A DNA stretch of 63,808 nt, filler included, from Thraustochytrium aureum (lineage: Eukaryota): assembly GCA_012862495.1 (NCBI GenBank). It is 7 parts of 6 records of this genome, joined end to end, with 100 filler letters (N's around TTAATTAATTAA, not from the genome) between each part and the next. Parts side by side here need not be neighbours in the genome. Positions count along the whole stretch, not along the records: positions 40,228 to 60,352 come from BLSG01000406.1; 6 more parts are not named here. The stretch is one strand, 5' to 3'. The notes beneath the pieces were generated by a model, which saw nothing but the letters and a program-made list of their open reading frames with translations, made no database searches and had not been told where the DNA came from. Shown piece after piece: positions 40,897 through 45,674 of this stretch (positions within the stretch are counted from its first letter, which is position 1; every line of letters starts with the position of its first letter). The position numbers and the translations under genes were made by a program.

Positions 40897-43800
40897 ATGA
40901 GAGTGATCCACGGCGGGTTTGTGGCAGCGCTCGCTGCGACGGCGACTACATGGCAGGCACGGGCGGAGTGCGCTTGCAAGAACCGCACCGACACGCGCAT
41001 CGCCCTAGTCGGGTTCCAAGACCCTTCCACATCCGACGAATTCAACCTGGTCGTAAATGGATTCTTGGAAGCCGGGAAGAGCCTCCGCATTCAGGCCACT
41101 CTGCACACTCCAACCGAGTTTGAGCTGGTCGATACGTTTACCGCGGACAAACTGGCTGCATTTGAGCACCACCTCGACCAAGCCATGGCCACGAACCCCC
41201 ACGGGTTGCTCGTGACAGTGCCCGACCTGGAACTTGCCTCCCCAATTCTCAAAGCGCTGCCGAGCAACGTAACCGTAACGCTCGTTGGGCCAGGAATCGC
41301 GGCTCGAGCAAACGAAACTACCGCAGGCAGTCTCTTCAGCGGCGTCACCCACCTTGGCATCGACGAGCGAGAAACTGGCGTTCAAGTGGGGCGACAGGCA
41401 GCCCGCCTCGGCGCGACATCAGCGCTTTGCTTTTTCGGGAAGGGCGGGCTGGCCTCTGAGGCAGAGCAGTGTCAAGGATTCGTGGAGGGCTTTCTTTCCA
41501 CCTGCCCAGGGAATTGCTTCGCCACCACACGGCGCATGTCAAGCACCAACCAATTTGCTCTCCAGGCCGACCTGATCACCGAGCTATCCACAAGCTTGCA
41601 CAACGCCACGACACTGATCGTGGCGCCGAGCGGCCGTAGTGCGCGCTCAGCCCGCCAGGTTCTCTTTGGTTTGGGGCGAAGTCCAATCCATGTCATCTCG
41701 ATGTCGACTGACGCGATTGCAGAAAAAATGATGGCTAGTCGAGAGCTCGCCTTCAGCGTGGACCGCCAGCCGTACCTCTCCGGGTTTCTGGGCACCGTTT
41801 TGACTGTCTACGCGGCAACAACAGGCCAGGCCCCGGCCAACCCGGTACTCAGCACGGGGCCCGTGTTTCTGACGTCGCCGCGCAAGCGACCCGACACTAC
41901 CATTGACCAGCTCGTCATCGACATCGTCACCCACGGCAGCGGTGCGGACGGGTTTTGGCTCGACGCCAAAAAGGGCGGCGTGGAAGCCGCCCGAGACCTC
42001 GGCGTCACGTTCGAGGAGTGCGTGCTGGTAAACTCGAACTGCAACGGCAAGCCCGGGTCCGTGAGCTACCGCGCCCCAGGCTCCGAGTTTGACCTGGCAA
42101 CTATGAGCCTCCAGATTCTGGAGACCGCAAACCACGAACCCGACGGACTCGTGGTGACCATTCCTAACTGGGGGGCCCTGAGCAACGCAATTGAGACTGC
42201 TGTAAAAGACATGGGCATTCCCACCGTCAGCGCAAACGCGGGCGGACAGATTGCAATTCAGGTCGGGATGCTCGCGCACTTCGGCCAAGAAGAGGTCGCT
42301 GCTGGGTTTCACGCCGCGGAGCACATGTTCAAGAAGAAGGGGGTAACGAAAGGGATATTTCTCAACCACGAGATAGGCAACTCGGCCTTGGACGAGCGCG
42401 CCCAAGGATTCTTGGAGGGTCTCAATGCTGTCACAGGCAACACTGAGACCGTTCAGGCGGTGCAGCTGGCCTTTGGCAGCCGAGACGCGTTCCAAACTAA
42501 CGTGATTCCGATTCTACAAGGCGACCCAAATATCACGGGTATGATGTTCGCAGGATCTTTTGATATTGACATGGTCGTCGATGAAATTCAAAAGGCGGGC
42601 GTTTCTCAGGAGATCGTGATCGGCACCTTTGATGTCCTTCCTGAGGTGCTCTCGTGGATCAAAGACGGGACGACGCTGCTAACGGTTCAGCAGCAACAGC
42701 AAATGCAGTTCTACGTCCCGACTATTTTGCTGGCCCTACGGGCCCTCACGGGGGAGTTCTTAAAGGTCGAGTGGTTCATGACCGGCCCTGCCATCGTTGA
42801 CCAGACAAACGTCGACCAGGTTCCCTGCCAGCACGAACTGGCTTGTCCTGCTGAGCTTGAGTATGCGACTGGCTCCTGCCCTGCTCCGCAAAGCAAGGGT
42901 GATGGATGGTGTGACAAGGCCAACAACATTCGAGAGTGCGACTTCGACGGCGGCGATTGCTGTAGGGAGACGTGCGTGAGCTCGGGATCGTTTTCCTGCG
43001 GCACAGATACCTTTTCGTCTGGGCTCAACAAGTTCGTGTGCATTGATCCTGGCACCCTAGAGGGCCTTAAATTCATCTGCGAGGCAACGCCAAGCGACCC
43101 TCGGTGCGTGGGGGCTAATTTTCGAGACCCCACGCTCCTTACCCTTGGTCTTGTCCTGGACATAACAGACTCGAGCGTTACCGACGAAGCGGCGTGCCTG
43201 GGCGGCCAAGTTTGGAACGCCACGGTAGGGCAATGCTTTCTCACGGGAGAGCCCCAGGCCGTGCTCGCGGCTGCGCTCCTGGCTGTGCAGCACTTCAACG
43301 ATCGAGACGCAAGCATTCTGCCCGTCTTCGGGACCCTGGGATCTTGTAACAAGAAGCTGAGCCTTGTCGTCGAAGACGCAGGCTCTGCCATCGGGCCGTC
43401 AATCTCTGCTACGATGCGCGTCCTACAGACCGATACCGATGTCATCGTTGGCCCCTCTTCATCTGAAGCCATATCTCGAACCGCTCTTCTCTCAAGCGCG
43501 CTCGGCGGGATCCCCCACATTTCCTACGGAGCGACATCGCGCCGGCTTGACGATGCAGCATCTTTCCCCTACTTTTCGCGCACGATTGTCTCCGAGACGG
43601 AGAGCACAAAAGCGACCTGCCGGGTCATCTCCTCGCTTGGATTCCGCTTCGCTGCAGTGCTGTACCTGGAGACCGAAGAGGGCGAGAGTCGACGCGCGAG
43701 TCTCATCAACACCTGCGCCACCGAAGACGTGGCTATCCGGGCGTTCCCGTTCTCGTGGGACGACGCTGGCAACGCAGCGGCCCTTGAGGGTCTGCAGCCT

Positions 43801-45674
43801 TTTAATGTGTTTGCCTTGATGGGCAGCTCTTCGCAGGCCCTCCAAGTGCTCTTGGCCGCCTTTGCGGGAGGACTTGTTGTCCCAGGCTCGTCCTGGTTTC
43901 TCGACGAGGGCATAGTTGATCTCATCAATAGGATGGTCGCTCCGCCAGCAGGGTTCCTCGATGCTGTTGCAGGCTCCGTCATGGTCAAGCCCCGAGGGGG
44001 CGCAGGCGCCCTGTACGACTCGCTCGTAGGCAAGTGGACCAGGTCCAACGTTACCGCGTTCGCCGATGTCATCCCGCAAGGCGTGTCCATGGCTGGCGCG
44101 TTCGCCTCCACCGCGTTCCTTGCCATGTCTGCTGCGTACGCTTTCGACTCGGTCGCGCTTGCCGCCGTTGCCTCNNNNNNNNNNNNNNNNNNNNNNNNNN
44201 NNNNNNNNNNNNNNNNNNNNNNNNNNNNNNNNNNNNNNNNNNNNNNNNNNNNNNNNNNNNNNNNNNNNNNNNNNNNNNNNNNNNNNNNNNNNNNNNNNNN
44301 NNNNNNNNNNNNNNNNNNNNNNNNNNNNNNNNNNNNNNNNNNNNNNNNNNNNNNNNATGCCACGTTTCGCCAACAAAGCCTTTGGTTCGCAGCACCTTTG
44401 GAGACCAGTTTCAGGACGCCCTCGCCAAGGGCATCCAGTTCGAAGGGCTCACTGGAACTGTTGCCATGGACGCAAAGCACAATCGCGAAAGGGCTACCTC
44501 TGTAATTGAGATCCTCAGCGTGCAACGGTTCGACCCCTCTGGGCCGTTGCAGCATGGGGTCGTTGGAGAGTTTGACCTTGCAGCGAACGAGCTCGAGCTC
44601 AGCTCGGTCCTAAAGTTCACAGGAGGCGTCTCCGCCTCGTCCATCACTGATGTCAAGGTGCCTGAGCAGGATTTTGGCTACTCGATAGGGCTCCAGGTTG
44701 TCTCTTACGTGCTTTTGGGAATCAACCTCGCTGTCTGTGCGTCCTTCCTAGTCTGGACAGTCAAGCACAGGCGTGAGGCTGTCGTCCGCGCCGCTCAAGT
44801 GCCGTTCCTGGTAATGGTTGGTGTGGGGTGTGCTGTTTCCTCGCTGACCATGATTCCCATTGCAACGACAGACGAGAGCGACCCAGCTGGACCAAAGGGG
44901 GGAAATAGTGCGGCGGACATGGCCTGCATGGCCCAGGTCTGGATCTACACGCTCGGCTTTGTGCTTACGTTTGGGCCACTGTTTGCAAAGCTGTATCGAG
45001 TACGCACCATCTTCCTCGAGAACCAATTTAATGGGGCGAGCAAGACGAACATGCGTTCCAATCACGCTCGAATCAACAACCGGCAGCTCGTCAAGATGAT
45101 CGCCAAGTTCGCTGTGGTGGACTTGACCATCGTTGGATTCTGGACGGCGAATCATCCAATGAAGTACGTTCGTAGCGTGCAGCAAACTGACGAATTCGAA
45201 AACCCGCTCAGGTCGATTGGATTCTGTGCTGGTGAGTACACCTCAACATACGTGGTCCTGTTGGGGGTGCTGCACATATCCATGCTTGCCTATGGCTCAG
45301 TGCTGTGTTATCAGACGAGTGGTATTTCGACAGTATTCTCCGAGTCCAAGTACCTAAGCGTGGCAATCTTCAGCAACCTCCAGCTCCTTCTTGTCGCCAT
45401 CCCTATTCTGGTGGTGACTTCTGACAATGCGCACGTGTCTACGCTCGTTCGGAGCGGAGTGGTATTTCTGGACGCTGCAAGTACGGTCACGCTCGTGTTC
45501 GGCCCGAAGGTGTACTTTCACTATTATGGCTGTCGCAACGACTCGGGGATTGGCGCAGGACTCATTGCGGGTTCCAAGTTCCAAGCCAACGCGGTGGCTG
45601 TTGCGCCAAACAACACCGATTTTCCAAGCACAGACGCTGTGTCGAGCGATGCAAAGAAAGCAAGCTCAGGCTAG
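40897..45674 (+). CDS. Class C (GABA-B-like) GPCR with two N-terminal periplasmic sugar-binding domains, an LNR module and a Venus-flytrap domain (N gap 44175-44356)
   Basis: Signal peptide; SBP1 ~40993-41875 (NPHGLLVTVPD, VDRQPYLSGFLG, LSTGPVFLT); SBP2 ~41911-42813 (VTHG...DGFW, YRAPGSEFD, PDGLVVTIP, HFGQEEVAAG, NHEIGNSALDERAQGF, IGTFD, QQQQMQFY, TGPAIVD); LNR GDGWCDKANNIRECDFDGGDCC; VFT (VIVGPSSS, IPHISYGATSRRLDD...FPYFSRT, AYAFDSV, FEGLTG); 7tm_3 (VRAAQVPFL, FAKLYRV, FSESKY, FGPK). Confidence 0.9.

What the first reader, a model, noticed from the sequence alone, without database searches (positions are those of the whole stretch)
40897..45674. Chimeric class C GPCR with three ligand-binding clamshells: two bacterial-type sugar-binding proteins + LNR + Venus flytrap + 7TM
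Seen: one reading frame of ~1090 aa runs from a signal peptide through two tandem type-I periplasmic binding domains, a Notch/LNR-like Cys module (GDGWCD...CDFDGGDCC) and an ANF-receptor Venus-flytrap domain; after a short gap it continues into a GABA-B-like 7TM. SBP2 closely follows bacterial ABC-transporter sugar/polyol binding proteins (VTHG..D.FW, YRAP..FD, HxGQEE.AG, NHE.GN.AL.ER..GF, GTFD, QQQ..Q.Y). SBP1 is a diverged copy that has changed several of these motifs. Established: canonical class C GPCRs have a single VFT, and SBP-bearing class C receptors reported in anaerobic gut fungi and amoebozoa use the SBP as the ectodomain. Inference: keeping the native VFT and adding two bacterially derived sugar SBPs through an LNR hinge could give a multi-input (sugar + amino acid) chemosensor, for example for zoospore chemotaxis. 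I know of no described receptor with this architecture.
Basis: partly seen in the sequence, partly recalled or inferred. Interest (0 to 1): 0.88.

Follow-up and report, generated by a model that had tools for sequence, protein, structure and literature searches.

The report
Inositol-sensor cassette stacked on flytrap GPCR
One unbroken gene, likely from a marine thraustochytrid-type protist, encodes a GABA-B-like surface receptor that keeps its usual 'Venus flytrap' domain and carries two extra bacterial-type binding domains on top; only the second keeps a typical pocket and likely binds inositol, so this rare new combination of known parts would be a testable inositol sensor.

Summary
The architecture is real. 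The 182-N gap has true length zero in a public DNA contig, giving one 1531-aa frame: signal peptide, SBP1, SBP2, LNR-like module, Venus flytrap (VFT), GABA-B-like 7TM. A complete Mucochytrium quahogii transcript encodes the same layout. Among 87 other long homologues, none has both SBP and VFT. The parts are not new: 22 of the 87 are SBP-7TM receptors without a VFT, a type noted in diatoms in 2013, and the SBPx2-LNR cassette also sits on histidine kinases. Trees indicate the cassette was grafted onto a VFT receptor. Both SBPs belong to the inositol/rhizopine-binding lineage (MocB, IntA, PDB 4ru1), and 48 of 80 bacterial relatives lie beside iol genes. SBP2 keeps the family's conserved pocket-type residues; SBP1 has lost most. 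The VFT keeps Ser/Thr but has lost the lobe-2 Tyr that its plain relatives keep. So 'three ligand clamshells' overstates it. Most likely there is one cyclitol site, with SBP1 as scaffold and the VFT as transducer; a two-input receptor is the main rival. Ligand, coupling and role are untested. Verdict: new variant of a known kind, interest 0.5.

The parts
40897..40965 (+). Start codon and probable signal peptide (aa 1-23)
   Evidence: First ATG after an in-frame stop. Hydrophobic N-terminus ending in A-x-A, judged by eye; no predictor was available. The orthologue also starts with a hydrophobic leader.
40984..41886 (+). SBP1: degenerate type I binding domain of the inositol/rhizopine SBP lineage (about aa 30-330); likely scaffold
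   Evidence: Peripla_BP_4 23.1 bits; NF052284 69.7 bits; type I fold in model, VIA Z 24.7 to 5dte; 11 of 30 conserved positions kept, QPX 10 of 30.
41908..42831 (+). SBP2: type I binding domain with conserved pocket-type residues (about aa 338-645; H346, D351, F353, W354, N447, Q464, E466, N490, E492, N495, R501, D579, Q599, Q604); likely inositol/cyclitol site
   Evidence: Peripla_BP_4 87.8 bits; NF052284 165 bits, its only NCBIfam hit at E<=1e-10; best PDB match 4ru1 by sequence and by Foldseek; 22 of 30 conserved positions kept, QPX 24 of 30.
42877..43056 (+). LNR-like cysteine module (aa 661-720), the extended GDGWCD..NN..C.FDGGDCC..TC type
   Evidence: Pfam Notch 17.4 bits, under cut-off. 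Same pattern in P0003, P0008, P0009, P0011, P0012 and in repeat arrays that pass Pfam Notch as whole proteins. Not modelled with confidence.
43129..44174 (+). Venus flytrap (ANF_receptor), N-terminal part (aa ~745-1092); keeps S856 and T880, has E928 where mGluR5 has Tyr
   Evidence: Pfam 69 bits; Foldseek to mGlu2/3 and CaSR, E ~1e-15; alignments.
44175..44356 (.). 182-N assembly gap of true length zero
   Evidence: Bridged with no letters between by one X1 contig. The two flanks align to consecutive residues of the QPX orthologue. A paralogue 57/67 nt identical just left of the gap probably broke the assembly (inference).
44357..44681 (+). Venus flytrap C-terminal part and short stalk (no NCD3G domain, as in GABA-B)
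   Evidence: phmmer to GABA-B1/B2 begins here; aligns with P0003 1108-1215; no NCD3G hit.
44682..45509 (+). Class C 7TM domain, GABA-B-like
   Evidence: 7tm_3 120.5 bits; best PDB hits GABA-B2/B1, E 1e-18 to 1e-14; groups with VFT-bearing relatives, 95/91.
45510..45674 (+). Short cytoplasmic tail and stop codon

Best explanation
This is a single gene for a 1531-aa GABA-B-like class C GPCR, shared with Mucochytrium quahogii, in which an SBP-SBP-LNR cassette sits on top of a complete Venus-flytrap receptor; it likely senses extracellular myo-inositol or a related cyclitol through SBP2, with SBP1 predicted to be a non-binding scaffold and the remodelled flytrap likely acting as transducer. Shown: one frame, domain order, orthologue, SBP lineage, residue patterns, and a 7TM that groups with flytrap receptors. 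Inferred steps: (1) the ectodomain faces outward; (2) cyclitol closes SBP2, which is predicted to pack rigidly on SBP1; (3) the disulfide-rich, probably Ca2+-stiffened LNR-like linker passes the movement to the flytrap; (4) the flytrap dimer rearranges as in GABA-B/mGluR (established for those receptors, recalled) and the 7TM activates a G protein. The likely use is sensing algal or plant-derived substrate; zoospore chemotaxis is possible but untested.
For: One gene: bridging contig; complete MMETSP transcript P0003, 41% and 38% identical to the two halves and colinear across the gap; GC3 0.62-0.72 in all five parts. Cyclitol lineage: NF052284 (rhizopine SBP) is the only NCBIfam SBP family hit for both window domains and for 12 of 12 fusion-type relatives tested. 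The profile of 41 sequences matches 4ru1 at 296 bits against 166 for the next. [quoted passage not shown] 48 of 80 bacterial loci carry iolB/C/D/E homologues within about 6 kb, 56 of 80 with iolG-like genes counted. SBP2 intact, SBP1 degenerate in both orthologues. SBP1-SBP2 model pTM 0.88. VFT: Tyr replaced by Glu/Asp in both orthologues, Y/F in 11 of 11 plain-VFT relatives with data; the usual R and W of these relatives are also changed. Grafting: the 7TM groups with VFT-bearing receptors, 95/91; joining it with the SBP-LNR-7TM protein P0009 is rejected, p-AU 3.4e-5; the cassette is closest to SBP-LNR histidine kinases, 91/80 (D1 95/94 and D2 95/74).
Against: No ligand, coupling or expression data for the window gene. 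SBP2 is only 27-37% identical to its bacterial relatives and far below the NF052284 cut-off (165 vs 420), so specificity may have drifted. By VIA Z, 4ru1 (24.6) is tied with other sugar-binding proteins. The iol count has no control set, includes about ten near-identical Pelagibacter loci, and some low-identity hits may be other kinases or TIM barrels; 24 of 80 loci show no iol marker. Which residues touch inositol is recalled from ribose-type SBPs, not read from the 4ru1 structure. The VFT keeps invariant S856 and T880, the positions that hold the amino-acid backbone in mGluRs (recalled), which fits a still-working site. The LNR-like linker could not be modelled, so coupling is unsupported by structure. 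Only two full-length members are known. Tree supports for the cassette's origin are moderate, and the AU group was named after the tree was seen.
Confidence: 0.45

Rival explanations
1. Two-input receptor: SBP2 binds a cyclitol and the flytrap still binds its own ligand, an amino acid or, given the new acidic residue, an amine; the two sites act together as a coincidence or allosteric gate.
For: S856, T880 and S881 are invariant in 13-14 aligned flytraps including both orthologues. The flytrap is full-length, about 40% identical between orthologues, and folds like mGluR/CaSR domains.
Against: The lobe-2 aromatic kept in 11 of 11 plain relatives is lost in both fused receptors, and the neighbouring R and W positions are changed. 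Ser/Thr conservation may be structural: GABA-B2 also shows S and T at these positions, and it is known (recalled) not to bind GABA.
Confidence: 0.25
2. The cassette does not activate the receptor. It captures or concentrates ligand, tethers the cell to inositol-bearing surfaces, or caps the flytrap until it is shed, loosely like the Notch LNR region; the flytrap is the only activating site.
For: The cassette lies about 450 residues from the membrane domain, behind a linker of low model confidence. The cassette was added to an already complete receptor.
Against: The same cassette is the only recognisable ectodomain of histidine kinases (P0008, P0012, L081) and of the 7TM protein P0009, directly through the LNR-like module, so it is likely able to signal. 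There is one LNR-like unit, not three, and no Notch HD domain was detected.
Confidence: 0.14
3. Same mechanism as the best explanation, but SBP2 binds an ordinary monosaccharide or polyol (glucose, xylose, arabinose) rather than a cyclitol.
For: Glucose-, arabinose- and xylose-binding proteins are the next PDB matches and tie on fold score. The domain has long branches away from bacterial relatives.
Against: Sequence family, best structure and gene neighbourhoods all point to inositol, and the family-conserved positions are kept.
Confidence: 0.14
4. Assembly artefact or two separate genes.
For: Gapped draft assembly; the N run shifts the frame if taken literally. The bridging contig may come from the window's own sample.
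Against: A complete transcript of another species has the same colinear layout, and all junctions are spanned by contigs.
Confidence: 0.02

Closest known systems
Mucochytrium quahogii (QPX) EP00516_P005315 / MMETSP0098 Transcript_32546 (P0003), unstudied orthologue
   Same: Same five-part layout, 1550 aa, colinear, 41% and 38% identity; same degenerate SBP1, intact SBP2 and acidic residue at the flytrap Tyr position.
   Different: QPX SBP1 keeps the Arg that the window's SBP1 has lost. It is a database record only; no paper found.
GABA-B receptors (GABBR1/2) and mGluR/CaSR/T1R class C GPCRs
   Same: ANF flytrap joined to 7tm_3 without NCD3G, as in GABA-B; best 7TM matches are GABA-B2/B1; flytrap fold matches mGluR/CaSR.
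   Different: An extra 740-aa SBP-SBP-LNR cassette; lobe-2 Tyr lost; no long cytoplasmic tail.
Diatom class C-like GPCRs with sugar-ABC-type N-termini (Port et al. 2013, PMC3727952) and the wider SBPx2-7TM group (e.g. P0013, Pseudo-nitzschia heimii cluster)
   Same: For P0013, P0019 and P0075, SBP domains of the same NF052284 lineage in tandem on a 7tm_3. The three Phaeodactylum proteins of the paper were not fetched.
   Different: There the SBPs replace the flytrap, usually both keep the pocket pattern, most have no LNR, and their 7TMs fall outside the window's clade.
SBP-bearing Glutamate-family GPCRs of zoosporic and gut fungi and Dictyostelium (Krishnan 2012 PMC3251606; Seppala 2016 PMC5168858; Hall 2023 PMC10445921)
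   Same: Bacterial-type binding domains recruited as class C ectodomains.
   Different: The passages read describe SBP_bac_1/type II, Bmp, OpuAC or LysR domains in place of ANF, not type I inositol-lineage SBPs on top of ANF.
Bacterial inositol/rhizopine ABC binding proteins (MocB, IntA; Acidothermus ACEI_1806, PDB 4ru1)
   Same: Sequence family, fold and conserved pocket-type residues of SBP2.
   Different: Fused in tandem into a eukaryotic receptor, not a free periplasmic protein with permease; below the equivalog cut-off; SBP1 degenerate.
Unnamed SBPx2-LNR hybrid histidine kinases (P0008, P0012, L081) and SBPx2-LNR-7TM (P0009)
   Same: Same cassette, including the LNR-like tail motif; nearest cassette relatives in trees.
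   Different: Output is a kinase or a VFT-less 7TM; hosts unknown.

Membership tests
Class C GPCR (GABA-B-like) | 7tm_3 domain above the Pfam cut-off | tested here: met
   120.5 bits vs 33.5; GABA-B best PDB hits.
Class C GPCR (GABA-B-like) | ANF/Venus flytrap directly N-terminal to the 7TM in one polypeptide | tested here: met
   69 bits vs 25.4; fold; gap bridged; orthologue.
Class C GPCR (GABA-B-like) | TM3 K-x-x-R, TM7 F-x-P-K and TM3-ECL2 cysteine pair (motifs recalled) | tested here: met
   KLYRV, FGPKV and two Cys in place in P0002, aligned with GABA-B2 through the profile.
Class C GPCR (GABA-B-like) | Amino-acid agonist site in the flytrap (Ser, Thr, lobe-2 Tyr; roles recalled) | tested here: inconclusive
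   S856 and T880 kept; Tyr replaced by E928.
Class C GPCR (GABA-B-like) | Obligate dimer and G-protein coupling | not testable with these tools
Class C GPCR and G-alpha domains are enriched in thraustochytrid genomes (PMC6050695, passage).
Rhizopine/inositol ABC SBP (NF052284, MocB/IntA) | Score above the equivalog cut-off (420) | tested here: not met
   SBP2 165, SBP1 70 bits. A typical bacterial relative also scored under it (356).
Rhizopine/inositol ABC SBP (NF052284, MocB/IntA) | Type I binding-protein fold | tested here: met
   Both domains, Z about 24-25, rmsd 2.3-2.6 A over about 280 residues.
Rhizopine/inositol ABC SBP (NF052284, MocB/IntA) | Family-conserved polar/aromatic residues, SBP2 | tested here: met
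   22 of 30 aligned positions; the bacterial set that defined the columns averages 29.6 of 31.
Rhizopine/inositol ABC SBP (NF052284, MocB/IntA) | Family-conserved polar/aromatic residues, SBP1 | tested here: not met
   11 of 30; His, Trp, Asn, Arg and Gln positions changed.
Rhizopine/inositol ABC SBP (NF052284, MocB/IntA) | Free periplasmic protein working with an ABC permease; measured cyclitol binding | not testable with these tools
   It is fused into a receptor, so it works like the family but is not a transporter subunit; binding needs an assay.
LNR (Notch/Lin-12 repeat) | Pfam PF00066 above cut-off 21.2 | tested here: not met
   17.4 bits in the window, 16.6 in QPX.
LNR (Notch/Lin-12 repeat) | Six-cysteine pattern with acidic Ca2+ ligands (pattern recalled) | tested here: inconclusive
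   GDG-x-CD and FDGGDC are present, but one cysteine pair appears missing and extra C-terminal cysteines follow; no confident model. Best called LNR-like.
Diatom-type SBP class C receptors (Port 2013) | Sugar-type SBP replaces the flytrap | tested here: not met
   Flytrap retained; 7TM separated from all 21 SBP-only 7TMs in the tree, 95/91.

The most novel reading that the evidence does not exclude
An extracellular inositol/cyclitol-activated GPCR. A portable inositol-sensor cassette of bacterial origin has been plugged into GPCRs, histidine kinases and channel-like proteins of several protist lineages; here it sits on a still-working flytrap, so one chain gates G-protein output on two chemically different cues through three stacked clamshells.
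Probability: 0.2. Interest if true: 0.8.

Novelty: new variant of a known kind. Interest (0 to 1): 0.5.

Why it matters
Ectodomain swapping in non-animal class C GPCRs is known, but in the papers read the bacterial domain replaces the flytrap. Here it is added on top, and the layout has lasted across two species about 40% identical. The ligand is now a specific, cheap test: inositol or a close cyclitol. A positive result would give a candidate ligand class for a large orphan group of protist receptors (22 SBP-7TM proteins among 87 long hits, plus kinases) and a molecular handle on how thraustochytrid cells find substrate. I recall no GPCR with inositol as agonist, and one search showed none. 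It would also test whether a distal clamshell can drive a class C 7TM through an intervening flytrap, which bears on receptor mechanism and biosensor design.

Tried and rejected
No host genome is held, so paralogues and G proteins could not be counted. No RNA holder was listed for the window; this is no evidence on expression. An intron in the N run was considered and rejected because a DNA contig joins the flanks directly. A metagenome scan with the two orthologues found no relative among 595 pattern matches. A second scan with the LNR motif gave 78 loci (best of 357); only L081 had another cassette domain, and it is a histidine kinase. The 'longer proteins' search covered only 3832-5000 aa and found nothing, which is uninformative. 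P0020 (406-aa fragment) groups with both SBP1 domains at 100/98 and may be a third orthologue, but its downstream part is missing. A single eukaryotic origin of all fused SBPs was suggested by FastTree (118 rows, 96) but not supported by IQ-TREE on 64 rows (bootstrap not converged), so donor and number of transfers are left open; no bacterial sister group was found. 'Ordinary VFT repeats' was rejected: the SBPs hit Peripla_BP_4, not ANF. Complex prediction of SBP2 with the flytrap was not available, so docking and dimerisation are untested. The ESM Atlas gave only generic ANF-7tm_3 and Peripla_BP_4-7tm_3 clusters below 0.9 for P0003 and held neither the window part nor P0009. The Caulobacter inositol-binding structure paper was not held. 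Literature searches without a description of this layout: (open-licence PMC and bioRxiv only). Supplements not seen that could list it: de Mendoza 2014 Fig. S3, eLife 107467 file 12, the PMC6050695 GPCR trees.

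
Full report
1. The observation. The window is a gapped draft of an intron-poor eukaryote: 15 N runs of varied length and six 100-nt linkers; no whole genome is held. 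From the ATG at 40897 one frame runs 1092 codons to a 182-N run (44175-44356); a second frame continues to the stop at 45674. Literally the N run shifts the frame. A 453-nt contig of DNA run X1 lies on 44086-44174 and then on 44357-44720 with no letter between, so the gap is empty and the gene has 4596 nt, 1531 aa plus stop. A paralogous sequence, 57 of 67 nt identical just left of the gap and running on into similar coding sequence, is present in X1 and X5 and probably broke the assembly (inference). The other domain junctions are each spanned by a public contig. X1 may be the window's own sample, so the independent evidence is the orthologue: P0003, a complete MMETSP transcript of Mucochytrium quahogii, 1550 aa, 41% identical to the left part and 38% to the right, the two parts aligning to consecutive residues. 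GC3 is 0.62-0.72 in all five parts. The host is likely a labyrinthulomycete, inferred from this orthologue and from the QPX paralogue P0005 in the same 7TM clade.

2. Anatomy. Pfam gives Peripla_BP_4 twice, a sub-threshold Notch/LNR hit, ANF_receptor and 7tm_3. AlphaFold2 with a 45-row alignment folds SBP1 and SBP2 as two type I binding proteins (pLDDT 85.4, pTM 0.88, suggesting fixed packing); the LNR-like part stays under pLDDT 50 in both models. Foldseek ranks 4ru1 first for the SBP model and mGlu2/3 and CaSR for the flytrap. The 7TM is closest to GABA-B among solved structures.

3. Likely ligand. Both SBPs, and 12 of 12 fusion-type relatives tested, have NCBIfam NF052284 (rhizopine-catabolism SBP) as their only SBP family hit, all under its cut-off. 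[quoted passage not shown] A profile of SBP2 and 40 short homologues matches 4ru1 at 296 bits, next best 166; PMC10747050 calls 4ru1 a verified myo-inositol transporter (one passage). Of 80 bacterial loci fetched (best of 532), 48 carry iolB, iolC, iolD or iolE homologues and 56 if iolG-like genes are counted; the five representatives pass their NCBIfam cut-offs. Caveats: no control set, about ten near-identical Pelagibacter loci, some low-identity hits, and 24 loci without a marker. On fold score alone 4ru1 ties with other sugar binders.

4. Which clamshells still work. Of 31 polar or aromatic columns conserved in at least 85% of the 80 bacterial proteins, SBP2 keeps 22 of 30 aligned (QPX 24) and SBP1 11 of 30 (QPX 10). 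That these columns include the sugar contacts is recalled from ribose-type proteins. In the flytrap, S856 and T880 are invariant. The residue that aligns with the Tyr of mGluR5 'NYGES' is Glu928, Asp in QPX, while 11 of 11 plain-flytrap relatives with data have Tyr or Phe; the Arg and Trp common in those relatives are also changed. So there is one clearly kept site, one degenerate site and one remodelled site.

5. How common, and how it arose. The whole-library search gave 2004 hits at E<=0.001 and listed 150. All 87 listed proteins of 430 aa or more other than P0003 were scanned with Pfam: 22 have Peripla_BP_4 with 7tm_3, none has Peripla_BP_4 with ANF_receptor. The SBPx2-LNR cassette also occurs on histidine kinases (P0008, P0012, L081; P0011 has the cassette and one TM) and on a flytrap-less 7TM (P0009). 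Tandem SBPs also head Picozoa and prasinophyte-cluster membrane proteins (P0014, P0144). Triple-flytrap 7TMs exist too (P0005, P0021). In a tree of 30 7TM domains the window and QPX group with flytrap-bearing receptors and one Cache-like receptor, apart from all 21 SBP-only ones (95/91); forcing them with P0009 is rejected (p-AU 3.4e-5; group named after seeing the tree). The cassette is nearest to the kinase cassettes (91/80 on 33 concatenated rows; 95/94 and 95/74 per domain). The simplest reading is that an existing cassette was grafted onto a complete flytrap receptor before the two species split. One origin for all eukaryotic copies and the bacterial donor are not resolved (site-homogeneous models; bootstrap unconverged).

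6. Mechanism. Most likely (0.45): SBP2 binds a cyclitol, SBP1 is a scaffold, the LNR-like linker passes closure to the flytrap, which acts as dimer hinge and transducer for the 7TM. That the cassette can signal through the LNR-like unit is suggested by proteins where it is the only recognisable ectodomain. Rivals: a true two-input receptor (0.25), a non-activating capture or cap module (0.14), another sugar as ligand (0.14), artefact (0.02).

7. Against what is known. Port 2013 (PMC3727952, passages) reports three Phaeodactylum class C-like receptors with sugar-ABC-type N-termini. Krishnan 2012 (PMC3251606, passages), Seppala 2016 (PMC5168858, passages), Hall 2023 (PMC10445921, passages), de Mendoza 2014 (PMC3971589, passages) and eLife 107467 (PMC12716839, passages and section 9) document varied ectodomains and domain shuffling in non-animal class C receptors; none of the text read describes an SBP on top of an ANF domain. 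PMC6050695 (passages) reports class C GPCR and G-alpha domains enriched in thraustochytrids and the sugar/inositol transporter domain absent, so inositol might be a cue more than a food there (weak inference). PMC12221091 (passages) notes that thraustochytrid zoospores are chemotactic but names no GPCR. Ten searches found no description of this layout; subscription papers and the supplements named under Tried and rejected were not seen. Earlier notes of this scan on SBP-7TM and multi-flytrap receptors in other genomes agree that the ingredients are widespread; they are unchecked leads.

8. Verdict. A real, rare and conserved recombination of known modules: a member of the class C family by every feature that could be tested except the amino-acid site, which is inconclusive. 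It works like a MocB/IntA inositol binder at SBP2 without being a member of that transporter family. New variant of a known kind; interest 0.5, carried mostly by the specific and testable inositol hypothesis.

Noticed in passing
P0008, P0012, P0011, L081:319-3367: Hybrid histidine kinases of unknown hosts whose ectodomain is the same inositol-lineage SBPx2-LNR cassette with one TM; candidates for an inositol-sensing two-component system, likely eukaryotic.
   Followed up: partly
P0014 (Picozoa), P0144 (cluster with Pycnococcus and Pseudoscourfieldia records): Tandem inositol-lineage SBPs on multi-TM proteins with Ephrin_rec_like domains; P0144 also has a TRP-family hit and EF hands.
   Followed up: partly
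P0005, P0021, P0006, P0084: Close relatives with other layouts: three ANF flytraps on one 7TM (P0005 from QPX, P0021), a weak Cache-like ectodomain on a 7TM (P0006, under cut-off), and an ANF flytrap joined to PI-PLC-X (P0084).
   Followed up: partly
window 44108-44174: A paralogous class C sequence (57 of 67 nt identical here) is present in runs X1 and X5.
   Followed up: partly
window 30252-33291 (-): An elongation factor 3 gene (HEAT, ABC, chromo) is split into two overlapping frames near 32280, probably by a one-base assembly error in a short C run.
   Followed up: partly
window 45876-45958: A short element 200 nt after the stop codon, with a 16-bp unit repeated 3.3 times and many contigs with loose ends at depth about 99 in X1: a dispersed repeat.
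   Followed up: no
window 47139-48980 (+): The next gene, on the same strand, is an intact Na+/Pi cotransporter; no link to the receptor was tested.
   Followed up: no
window 60648-62588 (+): A 647-aa ORF cut by a linker, with a weak P-loop hit (AAA_16, under cut-off); the layout recalls Crinkler-type NTPase/nuclease proteins (recalled, not tested).
   Followed up: no
P0010, P0017, P0018, P0025, P0026: Tandem SBP pairs whose two halves group with each other among prokaryote-type sequences, so tandem duplication of this SBP likely happened several times.
   Followed up: no
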